From sequence record PX068456.1: DNA of 64,000 bases; one strand, 5' to 3'. Shown here piece after piece: positions 29,706 to 38,940 of the stretch. How positions within the stretch are numbered: the first letter of the stretch is position 1; each line of letters starts with the position of its first letter. A program made the translations under genes and the position numbers. The notes below the pieces were generated by a model. That model had not been told where the DNA came from and did no database searches. It saw only the letters and a list, made by a program, of their open reading frames with translations. This stretch comes from a phage.

Positions 29706-29839
29706 ATAAATTATCTTTAAAATAGCCAGTGTTTGCGGCACTTGACTATGAAGTATTAGGGTATCGGTAAGATGGTGGAGGCCATCTGCCGAAAGTTTAC
29801 TCTATTAAAGTAAGATTACAAGCTACATTAAAGATAACT

Positions 29840-29925
29840 TGGCGGTAGATGTAGGACTTGAACCTACACGCCGTTTCCGACGACAGTTTAGCAAACTGTT
29901 GTGGCTACCATTTCACCAATCTACC
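29840..29925 (-). tRNA. tRNA-Ser (anticodon GCT), type II
   Basis: Perfect acceptor GGTAGAT/ATCTACC, anticodon arm ACAGT-TTGCTAA-ACTGT, long variable arm. Confidence 0.7.
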
Positions 29926-29933
29926 GTTCTTAA

Positions 29934-30086
29934 TTATTCAAAACAACCGGAATCTTTTTGTTCTGCTTTTACCATACGAATATTTTTACCATCTTCAGAT
30001 TGTTGAAGATTAGAATACTCATAAACAACTTTATTATCTACAATCTTAACTCCGGTAACAACCTGTCCAATAGTTTTATAATTCAT
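29934..30086 (-). CDS. small hypothetical protein
   Basis: ORF-track start at 30134 would overlap tRNA-Ser(TGA); internal ATG at 30084-30086 has AGGAG upstream, so start trimmed. Confidence 0.3.
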   Translation of the reverse strand: MNYKTIGQVVTGVKIVDNKVVYEYSNLQQSEDGKNIRMVKAEQKDSGCFE

Positions 30087-30104
30087 AAAGCTCCTAGTTG
30101 AATT

Positions 30105-30194
30105 TGGAGGAAGATAATGGAGTCGAACCATCACCGTATCGCTACAATGGGCCAGGGTTCAAACCTGGTTGCGCACCGCTGCGCCCTACCTTCC
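30105..30194 (-). tRNA. tRNA-Ser (anticodon TGA), type II
   Basis: Acceptor GGAAGGT/ATCTTCC, anticodon arm CCAGG-TTTGAAC-CCTGG, long variable arm, T-arm GATGG-TTCGACT-CCATT. Confidence 0.6.
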
Positions 30195-30257
30195 CGTTAT
30201 CATACTTTAAATCTAACATAAAACTATCTTGCTTGTCAAGTAGTTTTTAAAACTTTT

Positions 30258-30339
30258 TGGTCGGGGTGACAGGATTCGAACCTGCATACTCCAATTACTC
30301 GGTTAACGCCTGATTAGAAGTCAGGTGAGATACACCCCG
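30258..30339 (-). tRNA. atypical tRNA-like gene (TCT anticodon-like hairpin, no canonical D-arm)
   Basis: Perfect 7-bp acceptor CGGGGTG/CACCCCG with CCA and good T-arm, but only hairpin CCTGA-CTTCTAA-TCAGG lies 9 nt from acceptor; fold unresolved by hand. Confidence 0.35.
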
Positions 30340-30411
30340 TTTTCACAGTAACTATAACAAAAAACTAAGTGAATGTCAAGATATTTTTACTAAAATTATT
30401 ATTTAAATTGA

Positions 30412-30517
30412 AGCCTAGTTATGGAATCGAACCATATTTCGTATTTAGTTAGACAAAGCGGTCTAACATATTTTTCAGGCTTTGATGGCCTCGGAATTAC
30501 CAAATACCCTACTAGGC
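30412..30517 (-). tRNA. atypical long tRNA-like gene (106 nt; possible TCA or CTT anticodon)
   Basis: Perfect acceptor GCCTAGT/ACTAGGC, canonical T-arm TATGG-TTCGATT-CCATA and D-arm with GG, but 74 nt between acceptor and T-stem. Confidence 0.35.
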
Positions 30518-30519
30518 GT

Positions 30520-30605
30520 TGGTGCAAGTGGAGGGATTCGAACCCTCAATCATTTAAGCGTTGCGTTTTAAGCACAATGTGTATCACCAATTCCACCACA
30601 CTTGC
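30520..30605 (-). tRNA. tRNA-Leu (anticodon TAA), type II
   Basis: Perfect acceptor GCAAGTG/CACTTGC, anticodon arm TTGTG-CTTAAAA-CGCAA, long variable arm, T-arm GAGGG-TTCGAAT-CCCTC. Confidence 0.7.
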
Positions 30606-30634
30606 ATATAGGAGATGCATAGCACCTCCTTTTA

Positions 30635-30712
30635 AATGGTGGTTCCCCAGGGTTACAATCCCTGCCCTCGACACTTATGAGGTGTGCGCTCTCGTCAGTG
30701 AGCTATGGAACC
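30635..30712 (-). tRNA. tRNA with CAT anticodon, copy 3 (unusual T-loop)
   Basis: Anticodon loop CTCATAA, D-arm GCTC-ACTGACGA-GAGC, T-loop ATTGTAA atypical, A7-G66 mismatch. Confidence 0.55.
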
Positions 30713-30719
30713 TTGAATA

Positions 30720-30986
30720 TTAAGCATACTGGGTCATTTCGCCAGCTTCGCGTTTCTCCAGAAGAACTGTAATCAAAGCAATAGCTGCTTCTTCTTCGTG
30801 AGGCAGCCCCATTTCATCCAGAAGAGCAAGGAAGTCAATTACCAAACTTTCTGTTTTAAGGCTCACGCTACCATTTTCGTTTTCAGTAAGAACTGATTCA
30901 GGTTCAAAAATAAAGATTGCTCCACCTTTATTATCAATCAATACGTGCTTCTCAATCAGTTCTTTACCATAAGTACGTTCTGTCAT
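30720..30986 (-). CDS. hypothetical protein
   Basis: 88-aa acidic ORF flanking tRNA array. Confidence 0.45.
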   Translation of the reverse strand: MTERTYGKELIEKHVLIDNKGGAIFIFEPESVLTENENGSVSLKTESLVIDFLALLDEMGLPHEEEAAIALITVLLEKREAGEMTQYA

Positions 30987-36691: not shown

Positions 36692-37050
36692 TGTGCACTA
36701 CTAATCAACATGATATTTGTTACCAACCTCTTACTTGGATTGGTGAGGATCACTATGCTCAACGTGTTATAGTCTGCGCTGCGAATAAGTATATTCTCAA
36801 CAATGGCGAAGAGTTAATTATTCCTTGTGTTAGGCATGCAAATCCTGTACTATCTGCACAACTTAATGTTTTAAAAGATGCAGGATTGATTGGTAAACTG
36901 TTTTGCTTACCTGATAATCAAGGGTTTATTGATCAGTATTATAACTGGTGGAGTCGCAAAGATGCTTATATCATTGCAGATAACGCCAAACAAATTAACT
37001 ACGAAAGAAATGGTCACGACAGTGAACTATTCAGCGAGGGATTATACTAA
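36688..37050 (+). CDS. hypothetical protein
   Basis: 120-aa ORF directly upstream of phosphoesterase gene. Confidence 0.45.
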   Translation: MMCTTNQHDICYQPLTWIGEDHYAQRVIVCAANKYILNNGEELIIPCVRHANPVLSAQLNVLKDAGLIGKLFCLPDNQGFIDQYYNWWSRKDAYIIADNAKQINYERNGHDSELFSEGLY

Positions 37051-37601
37051 TGTTTATTACAAGTGATTTGCATTTTATGCACAAACGTATCCGAGAGTTT
37101 GCTCCTGAATATCGCCCGTGGGAAGATATGGAGCATATGACAGAAGCACTGATCGAAGCATGGAATAAATGTGCCACAACACCAGGAGTAAAGATGTACC
37201 ATCTTGGGGACTTCTGTTTCGGGACTGAAGAAGATACCCGTAAGATTGCTTCCCGTCTCCAAGGGGATATTACTTACTGTGTTGGGAACCATGATTACAG
37301 TAAACACCGAGAAGTGCTTGCAGAATATGGCGAGGTGGTGTATTATGATGAAGTGAAATATCAGAAACTGTTCTTCGTCTTAAGCCATTACCCTATGGCT
37401 TCCTGGAATAAACAAGGGCATGGATCAATCATGCTACACGGGCACTCTCACGGATCATTCCCTGATCATTTGTATGGGAGAATGTTGGATGTTGGTTGGG
37501 ACGCACACGGAAAAATCTTGCATTTTGACGAAATCATCTCTATTATGGATAAGCGTGATATTGTTGTTGTAGACCATCATAAGATAATCAAAGGAGATTA
37601 A
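37050..37601 (+). CDS. calcineurin-like metallophosphoesterase (RNA-end-healing phosphatase candidate)
   Basis: Motifs SDLHF, GDFCFG, GNHD, GHSHG. Confidence 0.7.
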   Translation: MFITSDLHFMHKRIREFAPEYRPWEDMEHMTEALIEAWNKCATTPGVKMYHLGDFCFGTEEDTRKIASRLQGDITYCVGNHDYSKHREVLAEYGEVVYYDEVKYQKLFFVLSHYPMASWNKQGHGSIMLHGHSHGSFPDHLYGRMLDVGWDAHGKILHFDEIISIMDKRDIVVVDHHKIIKGD

Positions 37602-37602
37602 G

Positions 37603-38535
37603 GTGGCTAAGTTCAATTGTGATGACCTGATTGCAAAAGGTTTAGTGCATAAAAAAGAAGTTAAATCTGGAGAGTATGCTGGTCTTGCTGTACTTAAATA
37701 CAAAAACAATGTATTCTGGGACAACTTGTGGGACGTAGACAAACGCCTTCTAGATTGTCGTGGGTTGGTTGTTGACTCAGAAGACAATGTTGTTATTTGG
37801 CCTTTTACTAAAATCTTTAATCGTTTTGAGAATGGTACAGATCTTCCAGCAGACCATCTTGTAGATGCTGTCCGTAAAGTAAACGGTTTTATGGCATCTG
37901 TAGGTGTGTACAAAGGGCAACTTATTGTATCAACAACAGGGAGCCTAGAGTCAGATTTTGCAATTCTTGCCAAGAACCATATTGTTTCCGAGTGTGATGA
38001 CATAGAATATTTCATTAAGTGGACAGAAAGTGCAAAAGCAACTTTCCTTTTTGAAATCTGTGATCCTTCTGATCCACATATTGTTGAAGAAGAACCAGGC
38101 GCATACTTAATTGGAGCAAGGATTCAAAATCCTGATGGGACAAGTTTCATGCTACCCGAAGGTGTGCTTGATGGGATTGCATCTATTACAAAATTTAAAC
38201 GTCCTGAAGTTTATCCGATGATTAAATTTTCAGATGTTGTTGAAATGTCTAAACATTGTAAGCACGAAGGGTTTGTTATTCGTGAAACAAACTATCCGTT
38301 TAACTTGCTGTTAAAGATTAAGTCACCATATTATCTTGCTAAGAAATTCCTTATGCGTGGTGGCAATAAGAAGTGGGATATGATTTGGGACAACCCAAAA
38401 AATGCTAAACAAATTGTTGACGAAGAATATTATACTTTGCTAGAATGGCTTCGAAACAACTTTACTAAGACTCAATGGGCTGCTTTAGATCCACAAGAGC
38501 GACGTAAAGAAATAGAAAACTTCTTTGGAGGCTAA
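37603..38535 (+). CDS. RNA ligase-like nucleotidyltransferase
   Basis: Ligase motif I KVNGF, motif IV EGFVIRE, motif V LLKIK; 310 aa; flanked by phosphatase and kinase genes. Confidence 0.6.
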   Translation: MAKFNCDDLIAKGLVHKKEVKSGEYAGLAVLKYKNNVFWDNLWDVDKRLLDCRGLVVDSEDNVVIWPFTKIFNRFENGTDLPADHLVDAVRKVNGFMASVGVYKGQLIVSTTGSLESDFAILAKNHIVSECDDIEYFIKWTESAKATFLFEICDPSDPHIVEEEPGAYLIGARIQNPDGTSFMLPEGVLDGIASITKFKRPEVYPMIKFSDVVEMSKHCKHEGFVIRETNYPFNLLLKIKSPYYLAKKFLMRGGNKKWDMIWDNPKNAKQIVDEEYYTLLEWLRNNFTKTQWAALDPQERRKEIENFFGG

Positions 38536-38940
38536 ATGAAACAACTTATCATTTTACGTGGTGTTTCAGGTGCAGGTAAATCTACAGTAGCAGAAATTAT
38601 TTCTGAAGGTTATTGGCCTATCTGTGAGGCAGATCAATATCATTACACAGAAAGTGGTGTTTACGATTGGAAGCCAGAGAATGTAGGTAAAGCACACGCA
38701 TGGTGTCAGAGTATTGTTCGTGATGCTATGGCATCTAATATTAAAAAGATTATTGTCTCTAACACTTCAACCACAGAGAAAGAACTTAAACCTTATTTAA
38801 CTCTTGCTGAAGAGTTTGGTTATCAAGTTATCTCCTTAGTTGTTGAAAATAGGCACGGTAACGACTCAATTCATGAGGTTCCACAACATATTCGTGATCA
38901 GCAAGAGAAACGTCTTCGCAGTTCACTTAAGCTACAATAA
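38536..38940 (+). CDS. polynucleotide kinase-like P-loop kinase
   Basis: Walker A GVSGAGKST near N-terminus; 134 aa. Confidence 0.6.
   Translation: MKQLIILRGVSGAGKSTVAEIISEGYWPICEADQYHYTESGVYDWKPENVGKAHAWCQSIVRDAMASNIKKIIVSNTSTTEKELKPYLTLAEEFGYQVISLVVENRHGNDSIHEVPQHIRDQQEKRLRSSLKLQ

What the first reader, a model, noticed from the sequence alone, without database searches (positions are those of the whole stretch)
30412..30517. 106-nt tRNA-like gene with perfect acceptor and T-arm but about 33 extra internal nucleotides
Acceptor GCCTAGT/ACTAGGC and T-arm TATGG-TTCGATT-CCATA are canonical and a D-arm with GG is present, but 74 nt separate acceptor and T-stem where 41 are expected. Internal hairpins include GGC-CAUCAAA-GCC (would present UCA, i.e. 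opal-reading, if that is the anticodon loop, though position 33 is A) and a 7-bp GUUAGAC-CGCUUUG-GUCUAAC hairpin. Possibilities are a suppressor or Sec-like tRNA, a tRNA with a short insertion or intron, or a tRNA-derived regulatory RNA. In-frame stops are not evident in the late genes, so genome-wide recoding looks unlikely.
Basis: seen in the sequence. Interest (0 to 1): 0.55.

Follow-up and report, generated by a model that had tools for sequence, protein, structure and literature searches.

The report
Conserved non-decoding tRNA-like phage RNA
This is a real, conserved tRNA-shaped small RNA gene in the tRNA cluster of a phi92-like E. coli phage; its anticodon arm is too short to read codons, so it is most likely a tRNA mimic of unknown function and not a stop-codon suppressor.

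Summary
On the minus strand, 30517→30412, lies a 106-nt tRNA-like gene, 2 nt after tRNA-Leu(UAA), in the tRNA array of a phi92-like phage (Justusliebigvirus).

ARAGORN and the Rfam tRNA model miss it. Its best Rfam match is tRNA-Sec at 29.4 bits, below the threshold of 47.

It belongs to a sharply delimited family in about 200 phage genomes: Justusliebigvirus, Henuna-, Mydo-, Seuna-, Vequinta- and Avunavirus, plus one N4-like podovirus.

Covariation supports the acceptor, D, anticodon-like and T stems, and also the tertiary G19–C56 pair, which swaps to U–A. In a MAFFT alignment 97.6% of cells are paired and 11 of 21 pairs show compensatory changes.

It is not an opal suppressor:
- UCA is not conserved. 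The loop reads CAUCAAA, CAUCCA, CAGCCA, CCUCAA, UUUUA and others.
- Position 33 is not U in the window or in most relatives.
- The anticodon arm is always 15–16 nt, not the canonical 17.
- The window shows no sign of UGA recoding.

A long extra arm is conserved, flanked by purine-rich linkers.

About 21 of 56 close relatives have cleanly deleted it, so it is accessory.

Public records leave it blank or call it tRNA-sup, tRNA-OTHER or tRNA-Lys.

My best reading is a non-decoding tRNA mimic matured by the tRNA-processing machinery. Its partner is unknown.

The parts
30412..30517 (-). Whole tRNA-like RNA gene, 106 nt from G1 (30517) to discriminator U (30412). CCA is not encoded here (the following bases are UCA).
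   Evidence: Sequence; family covariance model R1 gives 101.1 bits, E about 1e-21, and this is the only hit in the window.
30511..30517 (-). Acceptor stem, 5' strand GCCUAGU. It pairs with 30413-30419 (ACUAGGC).
   Evidence: Seven pairs, 100% paired in 18 sequences; pairs 3-70, 4-69 and 5-68 change on both sides.
30493..30508 (-). D arm GGUA-UUUGGUAA-UUCC with G18G19. It can also be drawn as a 6-bp stem with a 4-nt loop.
   Evidence: Three of 4 stem pairs are compensatory. RNAalifold draws 6 bp plus a 4-nt loop. The tertiary G19-C56 pair becomes U-A in 5 of 18 sequences.
30477..30491 (-). Anticodon-like arm AGGC-CAUCAAA-GCCU, 15 nt. It is 4 bp plus a 7-nt loop, or 5 positions with a C.A mismatch plus the 5-nt loop AUCAA. 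Position 33 is A.
   Evidence: The stem covaries (A-U/G-C; U-A/C-G/A-U). Loop sequence and length differ among genera.
30468..30476 (-). Conserved purine-rich 5' linker GAAAAAUAU.
   Evidence: G-AAAA(A)UA is nearly invariant across the family.
30448..30467 (-). Extra-arm hairpin GUUAGAC-CGCUUU-GUCUAAC.
   Evidence: A hairpin is present in every member with free sequence and compensatory changes, for example CCUCC/GGAGG against CCCCC/GGGGG and GACGA/UCGUU against GACGG/CCGUU.
30437..30447 (-). Conserved 3' linker UAAAUACGAAA (family consensus RAAUACAUA).
   Evidence: AAUAC is invariant in 18 of 18 sequences.
30420..30436 (-). T arm UAUGG-UUCGAUU-CCAUA.
   Evidence: The T-loop C56 covaries with D-loop G19.
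30520..30605 (-). Upstream tRNA-Leu(UAA) with encoded CCA, 2 nt before G1 of the tRNA-like RNA. The two are probably co-transcribed.
   Evidence: ARAGORN and Rfam. The same 2-nt spacing after an upstream tRNA's CCA occurs in most other genera examined; rV5-like phages are an exception.
30351..30379 (-). Sigma-70-like promoter TTGACA-17-TATAGT just downstream. It marks the start of the next transcription unit (the odd tRNA at 30339-30261).
   Evidence: Eleven of 12 consensus matches with an extended -10 TG.

Best explanation
This is a gene for a stable, non-decoding tRNA-like RNA. It is one member of a previously uncurated family carried in the tRNA arrays of rV5/phi92-related myoviruses and of one N4-like podovirus.

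Shown:
- The RNA keeps an L-shaped tRNA core. The acceptor, D, anticodon-like and T helices and the D-loop/T-loop elbow pair are all maintained by compensatory substitutions.
- It carries a long extra arm whose base is flanked by two conserved purine-rich strands.
- Its anticodon arm is 1-2 nt shorter than the universal 17 nt, and its loop differs in sequence and length between genera.
- It is dispensable, because close relatives have deleted it cleanly.

Inferred:
- It is transcribed with tRNA-Met and tRNA-Leu, released by RNase P at G1, trimmed at the 3' end and given CCA by the host. Most relatives encode U73-CCA.
- Because it cannot pair with a codon in the normal geometry, it works by tRNA mimicry. 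It occupies or redirects a host tRNA-binding factor.
- The extra arm and its purine-rich internal loop are the specificity handle.
- The partner is most likely a tRNA-targeting defence or toxin enzyme. The phage also carries an Rnl1-type tRNA-repair ligase with a kinase and a phosphoesterase.
- The partner is not identified.
For: Structure:
- On a MAFFT alignment, 97.6% of cells are paired and 11 of 21 pairs change on both sides. The covariation score is 0.532 against 0.184 for shuffles (0 of 500 reach it) and 0.126 or less for slid controls. The G19-C56 to U-A swap is included.
- RNAalifold independently recovers the helices; 12 of 22 pairs are compensatory.
- The extra hairpin is present in all members.

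Family delimitation:
- Members score 96-119 bits and ordinary tRNAs 35 bits or less.

Breadth:
- Justusliebigvirus, Henuna-, Mydo-, Seuna-, Vequinta- and Avunavirus, and Schitoviridae phage UTK0002.
- 123 rV5-like and Avunavirus records carry a full-length copy at 92% identity or more, 120 of them at 95% or more.

Non-decoding:
- The loops are CAUCAAA, UAUCAAA, CAUCCA, CUUCCA, CAGCCA, CCUCCA, CCUCAA, UUUUA and UUAUA, and the arm is 15-16 nt. The canonical arm is 5 bp plus 7 nt (PMC7609411).
- ARAGORN and the Rfam tRNA model do not call it.

Processing context:
- It lies 2 nt after the CCA of an upstream tRNA in most genera.
- U73-CCA is encoded in most members.

Accessory status:
- There is a clean deletion of about 123 bp in J-01, and about 21 of 56 close relatives lack it.

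tRNA-warfare context:
- An Rnl1-family RNA ligase (PF09511, 53 bits) lies at 37603-38535, next to a P-loop kinase and a phosphoesterase.

Origin:
- No copy exists in 5,426 complete E. coli genomes.
Against: - There are no expression, end-mapping or aminoacylation data, so stability and maturation are inferred from context only.
- No partner is identified. A 5-6 nt loop is a poor imitation of an anticodon loop, which weakens a pure anticodon-nuclease decoy model.
- The loop triplet and the discriminator seem to change together: NCC with U73 is Gly-like, and UUU with A73 is Lys-like. This hints that charging may matter, and a simple sponge model does not need that.
- Clean loss in many relatives shows that the function is conditional at best.
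Confidence: 0.6

Rival explanations
1. It is a working opal (UGA) suppressor, or a Sec/Cys-inserting tRNA. On this view the CAUCAAA loop presents UCA and reads UGA in a few phage or host genes, as the Erwinia phage records annotate it ('tRNA-sup(tca)').
For: - The UCA-containing 7-nt loop is identical in the window, Henunavirus and UTK0002 despite about 30% divergence elsewhere. L211 has UAUCAAA.
- It differs from the E. coli tRNA-Sec loop CUUCAAA only at position 33 (from my own knowledge of selC).
- tRNA-Sec is the best Rfam match (29.4 bits for the window, 39 for Hena1).
- Hena1 and pEp_SNUABM_01 annotate it as a suppressor.
Against: - Position 33 is A, the stem is 4 bp, and the arm is 15 nt.
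- Homologues with the same body have CAUCCA, CAGCCA, CCUCCA or UUUUA loops of 5-6 nt.
- The scores are below the Rfam thresholds.
- The geometry is 7/5, not 8/5, and the discriminator is U73, not G73.
- TGA ends 13 of 73 long ORFs. There is one same-frame TGA junction against 15 for TAA.
- The gene is deleted in about 21 of 56 near-identical phages.
Confidence: 0.07
2. It is an aminoacylated but non-decoding tRNA-like carrier. It is charged by a host synthetase (Gly-like in Mydo/Seunavirus, Lys-like in rV5-like phages, uncertain here). It is then used off the normal decoding path, for example by binding EF-Tu or the ribosome without a codon, or by donating an amino acid to a transferase.
For: - G1-C72 (23 of 24) and C2-G71 (24 of 24) stay fixed while pairs 3-70 to 5-68 covary freely.
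- U73-CCA is encoded in most members.
- Loop and discriminator combinations match known E. coli identity sets (from my own knowledge): NCC + U73 + G1-C72/C2-G71 for GlyRS, and UUU + A73 for LysRS.
Against: - The apparent co-switch rests on very few independent lineages.
- The window copy (UCA + U73) and Avunavirus (UAU + C/U73) fit no clean identity set.
- The short loops may prevent anticodon recognition by synthetases.
- No tRNA-dependent transferase was identified.
Confidence: 0.15
3. It is a decaying tRNA pseudogene, or a neutral relic, carried along within tRNA cassettes.
For: - It is dispensable in about 21 of 56 close relatives.
- The anticodon arm is defective.
- tRNA finders miss it.
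Against: - Compensatory changes keep four helices and a tertiary pair across genera about 30% diverged.
- The single-stranded linkers are nearly invariant.
- The flanking spacers are not alignable, and blastn similarity stops at the edges of the RNA.
- It was retained intact after transfer into an N4-like podovirus.
- 112 rV5-like copies are at least 99% identical.
Confidence: 0.08
4. The conserved signal is not an RNA gene on the minus strand. It is instead a small ORF (annotated as a 34-aa hypothetical protein in phage cardinal) or a plus-strand intrinsic terminator (hairpin 30448-30467 followed by TATTTTTC).
For: - Phage cardinal and others annotate a short CDS over it.
- The terminator scan flags the hairpin with its T-run on the plus strand.
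Against: - The reading frame is broken by 1-nt indels and stops in Seunavirus and rV5-like copies (sequences).
- The substitutions are pairwise-compensatory, not codon-like.
- All neighbouring genes are on the minus strand, so there is no plus-strand transcript to terminate.
- The number of terminator-like sites equals the shuffle expectation (2 against 2.3).
Confidence: 0.02

Closest known systems
Phage T4 stable RNAs C and D (species 1 and 2 RNAs, rnaC/rnaD)
   Same: They are small stable RNAs encoded inside a phage tRNA array, 1-6 nt from neighbouring tRNA genes. rnaC has a tRNA-like T arm near its 3' end. They are not decoders, and their function is still unknown (PMC3014915; PMC9697503).
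   Different: There is no detectable homology: rnaC scores 10 bits (E = 0.45) with the family model. As far as the sequence shows, the T4 rnaC RNA has a tRNA-like T arm only near its 3' end. This RNA keeps a complete cloverleaf-like core plus an extra arm.
Bacterial selenocysteine tRNA (Rfam RF01852)
   Same: It has a long extra arm and a D region that can form 6 bp with a 4-nt loop. It has no U8. The window subgroup has UCA in the loop. It is the best-scoring Rfam family.
   Different: The acceptor/T geometry is 7/5, not 8/5. The discriminator is U73, not G73. Position 33 is A and the anticodon arm is short. The extra arm is set off by long conserved linkers. Scores of 27-39 bits fall below the threshold of 47. 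Most family members lack UCA.
Class II elongator tRNAs (Leu, Ser, Tyr) and allo-tRNAs
   Same: They share the L-shaped core with a helical variable arm. After family members, the next-best hits of the family model are class II tRNAs at 23-35 bits.
   Different: Class II tRNAs have a canonical 5-bp stem and 7-nt anticodon loop with U33, and only 1-2 nt linkers at the base of the variable arm. Allo-tRNAs have 8/4 or 9/3 acceptor/T branches (PMC5389517). This RNA is 7/5.
tRNA-like domain of tmRNA and the YrlA (bacterial Y RNA) tRNA-like module
   Same: They are non-decoding RNAs that use an acceptor/T-arm/D-loop mimic to engage tRNA-binding proteins.
   Different: The window gives no tmRNA call by ARAGORN, and only a 7-bit T-loop match in Rfam. 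It lacks G3.U70 and has no conserved tag reading frame. It gives no YrlA match. Its ends form the acceptor stem, not a Ro-binding stem.

Membership tests
Canonical elongator tRNA (Rfam RF00005) | 7-bp acceptor stem, 5-bp T stem and a T loop of UUCRANY type | tested here: met
   GCCUAGU/ACUAGGC and UAUGG-UUCGAUU-CCAUA. The stems are 100% paired across 18 sequences, with compensatory changes.
Canonical elongator tRNA (Rfam RF00005) | D arm with G18G19 contacting the T loop (G19-C56) | tested here: met
   The D stem covaries. Column 18 against column 92 is G-C in 13 sequences and U-A in 5, and is never unpaired.
Canonical elongator tRNA (Rfam RF00005) | 5-bp anticodon stem with a 7-nt loop and U33 (17-nt arm) | tested here: not met
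   The window arm is 15 nt with A33. All 24 aligned members have 15-16 nt arms and 5-7 nt loops. The canonical dimensions are from PMC7609411.
Canonical elongator tRNA (Rfam RF00005) | Reaches the Rfam gathering score (29 bits) or is called by ARAGORN | tested here: not met
   There is no RF00005 match at the gathering threshold, and none is listed at E <= 10, where overlapping same-clan matches are reported only by their best member (tRNA-Sec). ARAGORN calls none of 9 members as a typed tRNA; it calls one as 'tRNA-??? (atcc)'.
Opal suppressor tRNA | UCA anticodon in a decoding-competent loop, conserved among orthologues | tested here: not met
   UCA occurs only in the window/Henunavirus/UTK0002/L211 subgroup and in NINP13076. 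Other members have UCC, GCC, UUU or UAU in shorter loops.
Opal suppressor tRNA | A need for it: in-frame UGA codons or depleted UGA stops in the genome | tested here: not met
   Of 73 long ORFs, 13 end in TGA. There is one same-frame TGA junction against 15 for TAA. The test covers this 64-kb window only.
Selenocysteine tRNA (Rfam RF01852) | 13-bp acceptor/T branch (8/5 in bacteria) | tested here: not met
   The branch is 7 + 5 = 12 bp. The model's extra pair is a mismatch in both alignments.
Selenocysteine tRNA (Rfam RF01852) | 6-bp D stem with a 4-nt loop | tested here: inconclusive
   RNAalifold adds U14-A21 and U15-A20. These columns are invariant, so there is no covariation for or against the pairs.
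Selenocysteine tRNA (Rfam RF01852) | Rfam gathering score of 47 bits | tested here: not met
   Window 29.4 bits, Hena1 39 bits, GEC_vB_MG 27 bits.
Selenocysteine tRNA (Rfam RF01852) | Serylation by SerRS, conversion by SelA and delivery by SelB to SECIS-linked UGA | not testable with these tools
   This needs biochemistry. U73 in place of G73, and the 7/5 fold, argue against it (from established knowledge of tRNA-Sec identity).
tmRNA | tRNA-like domain with G3.U70 plus a tag-peptide reading frame | tested here: not met
   Pair 3-70 is C-G, A-U or U-A. ARAGORN finds no tmRNA. Rfam tmRNA gives 7.1 bits on the T loop only. The short frames in the extra arm are not conserved (sequences).
T4 RNAC/RNAD-type stable RNAs of phage tRNA arrays | Located within a phage tRNA array, abutting tRNA genes, and not a decoder | tested here: met
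   It lies 2 nt after tRNA-Leu. The T4 layout is shown.
T4 RNAC/RNAD-type stable RNAs of phage tRNA arrays | Sequence or structure homology to rnaC or rnaD | tested here: not met
   The family model against the T4 tRNA region gives rnaC 10 bits (E = 0.45) and no hit over rnaD.
T4 RNAC/RNAD-type stable RNAs of phage tRNA arrays | Accumulates as a stable processed RNA in infected cells | not testable with these tools
   No transcriptome data were available for phi92- or rV5-like phages.

The most novel reading that the evidence does not exclude
This would be a new class of phage RNA effector: a fully folded tRNA look-alike with a crippled anticodon arm and a rigid extra arm. After normal tRNA maturation, and possibly aminoacylation, it would bind a host tRNA-recognising enzyme (an anticodon nuclease or other tRNA-modifying toxin, a synthetase, or a translation factor) and so neutralise a defence or retune translation. 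The loop and discriminator would be swapped between phage lineages to match different targets (Gly-like, Lys-like, UCA-type).
Probability: 0.25. Interest if true: 0.8.

Novelty: new variant of a known kind. Interest (0 to 1): 0.55.

Why it matters
Phage tRNA arrays are now seen as weapons against host tRNA-cleaving defences. The non-tRNA RNAs embedded in them, such as T4 RNAC and RNAD, have had no known function for decades.

This family gives a second example, with advantages for study:
- It is much more widespread, at about 200 genomes across several genera and two phage families.
- It has a well-supported structure.
- Natural deletion variants exist for isogenic comparison.
- Lineage-specific loop and discriminator variants hint at a changing target.

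It also corrects the databases. One RNA family is currently annotated as a stop-codon suppressor, as tRNA-Lys, as tRNA-OTHER, as a hypothetical protein, or not at all. The 'suppressor' label could mislead surveys of stop-codon recoding in phages.

Tried and rejected
- Rfam scans at the gathering and E-value thresholds found no curated family. There were only sub-threshold tRNA-Sec matches.
- Two viral-contig scans with strict patterns returned only close relatives.
- My loose pattern for the single genome contigs and metagenome-contig scans was too permissive. It mostly returned ordinary tRNAs. The covariance model then pulled 13 true members from the metagenome loci and none from the 71 bacterial loci. 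Absence from bacterial genomes is therefore only weakly tested, apart from E. coli.
- The literature searches found no description of this RNA. The searches covered rV5 with tRNA-like, Vequintavirinae with suppressor, Erwinia SNUABM phages, anticodon-nuclease decoys, and phage Sec or suppressor tRNAs. The rV5 genome paper lists six tRNAs and does not mention it.
- The conserved linker and the loop have no complementary target in the window above chance.
- I considered a pseudoknot between the anticodon-like loop and the extra-arm loop. The 4-nt matches (window CAAA/UUUG, L031 GCCA/UGGC) are inconsistent and absent in Hena1 and rV5-like copies, so I dropped it.
- A mini-tmRNA idea was rejected. 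AUG-UUA-GAC-CGC-UUU-GUC-UAA in the window's extra arm is not conserved.
- The small-ORF and plus-strand terminator readings were rejected; see the rival explanations.
- Odd elements in Pseudomonas phages ventosus and Roomu-2 that matched the T arm are not family members (11-22 bits). The EcSzw_1 match is an ordinary tRNA-Met.

Full report
**What is there**

The window is a phi92-like E. coli myovirus (Justusliebigvirus, Stephanstirmvirinae). The region 30200-30720 is 100% identical to Escherichia phage EC.P2 and 97-99.8% identical to 55 other records. A tRNA array occupies the minus strand from 27836 to 30712. ARAGORN finds 16 tRNAs there, and Rfam adds one odd tRNA at 30261-30339.

The finding lies between tRNA-Leu(UAA) (30520-30605) and that odd tRNA. 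Read on the minus strand, 30517→30412 is:

GCCUAGU-AG-GGUA-UUUGGUAA-UUCC-G-AGGC-CAUCAAA-GCCU-GAAAAAUAU-GUUAGAC-CGCUUU-GUCUAAC-UAAAUACGAAA-UAUGG-UUCGAUU-CCAUA-ACUAGGC-U.

Neither ARAGORN nor the Rfam tRNA model calls the element. The single-sequence fold is moderately better than shuffles, with z = -2.7.

**It is a conserved RNA family**

A sensitive blastn search found copies at about 70% identity in two other places. In Erwinia phages Hena1 and pEp_SNUABM_01 (Henunavirus) it is annotated 'tRNA-TERM / tRNA-sup(tca)'. In the N4-like Salmonella podovirus UTK0002 it is unannotated. The similarity stops at the edges of the RNA.

Searching on with the UTK0002 copy and then the rV5-like copy extended the family further:
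- Mydovirus: Ro1, KPP-1, KB57.
- Seunavirus: GEC_vB_MG, EspYZU14, NINP13076, GAP31.
- Vequintavirus: rV5 itself, Murica and the BASEL phages.
- Avunavirus.

Among rV5-like and Avunavirus phages, 123 records carry a full-length copy at 92% identity or more, 120 of them at 95% or more.

Public annotation of this one family is inconsistent. Most records leave it blank. Others call it 'tRNA-sup(tca)', 'tRNA-OTHER (Asp|Gly)', 'tRNA-???(atcc)', 'tRNA-Lys (AAA)' or 'hypothetical protein'.

A covariance model built from 18 distinct sequences separates members cleanly:
- Members score 96-119 bits.
- Ordinary tRNAs, including class II tRNAs, score 35 bits or less.
- The window has exactly one hit.

No copy exists in 5,426 complete E. 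coli genomes. Rfam 15 has no matching family.

**Structure**

I counted a hand-drawn cloverleaf plus one tertiary pair on a plain MAFFT alignment of the 18 sequences:
- 97.6% of cells are standard pairs.
- 11 of 21 pairs show changes on both sides.
- The covariation score is 0.532. The shuffled mean is 0.184 (0 of 500 shuffles reach the observed value), and structures slid by 1-3 columns give 0.126 or less.

Each of the five helices counted (the tertiary pair being the fifth) has at least one compensatory pair.

The D-loop/T-loop elbow pair also covaries. G19-C56 (UUUGGCAA with UUCGAUU) becomes U19-A56 (UUUGUCAA with UUAGAUU) in the Mydovirus and GAP31 copies. A two-dimensional drawing cannot produce this by accident, so the RNA most likely folds into a tRNA-like L.

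RNAalifold on the 24-member model alignment recovers the same helices, with 12 of 22 pairs compensatory. It extends the D stem to 6 bp with a 4-nt loop. Those two extra U-A pairs are invariant, so they remain untested.

Between the anticodon-like arm and the T stem, every member has a hairpin. Its sequence is free and it changes in a compensatory way, for example CCUCC/GGAGG against CCCCC/GGGGG, and GACGA/UCGUU against GACGG/CCGUU.

Two nearly invariant purine-rich strands flank this hairpin: G-AAAA(A)UA on the 5' side and RAAUAC-AUA on the 3' side.

Drawn against each other, the two strands give the same register in all subfamilies: U-A, A.A, A-U, A.A, A.C, bounded by A.G or A.A. The two strands also lengthen together in the window subgroup. 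I infer that they form a non-Watson-Crick internal loop that stiffens a long extra arm. This is an inference, not a tested result.

**Why it is not a decoder**

The canonical anticodon arm is a 5-bp stem plus a 7-nt loop with U33 (PMC7609411). In this family the stem covaries but the arm is always 15-16 nt:
- Window, Henunavirus and UTK0002: AGGC/GGGC-CAUCAAA-GCCU/GCCC. This is 4 bp plus 7 nt with A33, or a C.A mismatch closing AUCAA.
- L211: UAUCAAA, where U-A closes a 5-nt loop.
- Mydovirus and Seunavirus: 5 bp plus CAUCCA, CUUCCA, CAGCCA, CCUCCA or CCUCAA.
- rV5-like: 5 bp plus UUUUA.
- Avunavirus: 5 bp plus UUAUA.

The 'anticodon' that a tRNA finder would read therefore flips among UCA, UCC, GCC, UUU and UAU on an otherwise conserved body.

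The window shows no need for UGA suppression. TGA ends 13 of 73 long ORFs, and there is one same-frame TGA junction against 15 for TAA.

The best Rfam match is tRNA-Sec, but below its threshold of 47 bits: 29.4 bits for the window, 39 for Hena1 and 27 for GEC_vB_MG. The model's eighth acceptor pair is a mismatch. The fold is 7/5, not 8/5, and the discriminator is U, not G.

The suppressor and Sec readings therefore fail membership. The resemblance to tRNA-Sec in the long extra arm, the possible 6/4 D arm and the absence of U8 is real and may reflect ancestry.

**Context and maturation (inferred)**

In the window and in most other genera examined, G1 lies 2 nt after the encoded CCA of an upstream tRNA (…CCA-AY-G1). 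The upstream tRNA differs between genera: Leu, Thr, Ile, Arg or Ser. In rV5-like phages G1 does not directly follow a CCA.

Most members encode U73-CCA. The window has U73-UCA, and rV5-like copies have A73-CC. This is the layout of polycistronic tRNA precursors and of T4 rnaC and rnaD, which sit 1-6 nt from their neighbours. Release by RNase P, 3' trimming and CCA addition are therefore the expected route.

A strong sigma-70-like promoter (TTGACA-17-TATAGT, 30379→30351) follows immediately and starts the next unit.

**It is accessory**

About 21 of 56 Justusliebigvirus records cover only 76% of the 521-bp query. In phage J-01 the alignment shows a clean deletion of about 123 bp. It removes the RNA and leaves its first few bases, while the flanking sequence is about 99% identical.

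Conversely, the UTK0002 copy is 88.5% identical to that of an Erwinia myovirus. The RNA therefore moves between unrelated phages and stays intact.

**Function**

No tool here can show function. I commit to tRNA mimicry. A fully folded tRNA body that cannot decode, that carries a conserved extra arm, and that is accessory and horizontally mobile looks like an effector aimed at a tRNA-binding factor.

The phage clearly invests in tRNA conflict:
- It has a large tRNA array.
- 37603-38535 encodes an Rnl1-family RNA ligase (PF09511, 53 bits). It sits between a phosphoesterase-like ORF and a P-loop kinase ORF. A curated relative annotates these as phosphoesterase, RNA ligase and polynucleotide kinase.

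Against a simple anticodon-nuclease decoy, the loop is too small to imitate an anticodon loop.

One observation points toward aminoacylation. G1-C72 and C2-G71 stay essentially fixed while pairs 3-70 to 5-68 covary. In addition, the loop triplet and the discriminator appear to change together:
- NCC with U73 is the E. coli GlyRS identity set.
- UUU with A73 is the LysRS identity set.

These identity sets are from my own knowledge, and the pattern rests on few lineages. I list the charged-carrier model as the main rival refinement.

The pseudogene, small-ORF and plus-strand terminator readings are contradicted by the covariation, by frame breaks in other genera, and by the gene orientation.

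**Comparison and novelty**

In kind, the closest thing is the pair of T4 stable RNAs C and D. They are non-tRNA RNAs within a phage tRNA array whose roles are still unknown (PMC3014915, PMC9697503). They are not homologous to this family; rnaC scores 10 bits.

In shape, the closest is bacterial tRNA-Sec or a class II tRNA. The family fails the defining features of both.

I found no description of the family in Rfam or in the searchable literature. I therefore rate it a new variant of a known kind: a new, well-supported RNA family of unknown function.

Interest is moderate to good. The finding is not a recoding discovery. It is a tractable, widespread candidate RNA effector, and it corrects misleading 'suppressor tRNA' annotations.

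Noticed in passing
window 30261-30339 (minus strand): A second non-canonical tRNA lies next door. It has the acceptor CGGGGUG/CACCCCG, only 7 nt where the D arm should be, a normal anticodon arm with CUUCUAA (UCU, Arg), a small hairpin CCGA-GUAA-UUGG in the variable region, an encoded CCA, and its own strong promoter. Rfam tRNA gives 40 bits and ARAGORN misses it. Relatives annotate it as tRNA-Undet or tRNA-OTHER. Homologues at 82-87% identity occur in Felixounavirus, T5-like, Mydovirus and jumbo phages.
   Followed up: partly
L003:1618-1800, L011:713-893, L015:684-864, L012:713-900 (not in the window): In Henuna-, Mydo- and Seunavirus phages, a conserved block of about 170 nt follows the tRNA-like RNA directly. 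It shows compensatory-looking differences, for example CUGUUUCGCAAACGG against CUGCUUCGCAAGCAGG, and GGUGACGGCGGUCACC against GACAACGGCGGUUGUC. This suggests another structured RNA. It has no Rfam match and is absent from the window.
   Followed up: partly
window 30412-30535 compared with L227 (phage J-01): About 21 of 56 Justusliebigvirus genomes lack the tRNA-like RNA through a clean deletion of about 123 bp that leaves only its first few bases. These are natural isogenic-like controls.
   Followed up: yes
window 37050-38940 (plus strand): There is a three-gene cassette: a metallophosphoesterase-like ORF (weak, 21.5 bits), an Rnl1-family RNA ligase (PF09511, 53 bits) and a P-loop kinase (AAA_33). 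Phage PaulScherrer annotates the equivalent genes as phosphoesterase, RNA ligase and polynucleotide kinase. This looks like a T4-type tRNA-repair kit about 7 kb from the tRNA array.
   Followed up: partly
window 28901-28930, 30210-30239, 30351-30379 (minus strand): Several strong sigma-70-like promoters (10-11 of 12 consensus matches, all with an extended -10 TG) lie inside the tRNA array. The array is therefore probably transcribed as several short units, not one precursor.
   Followed up: no
Phage database records MG0656xx labelled 'Campylobacter phage': About 18 records labelled Campylobacter jejuni phages carry rV5-like or phi92-like sequence that is 99-100% identical to coliphage copies. 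Their host labels look doubtful.
   Followed up: no
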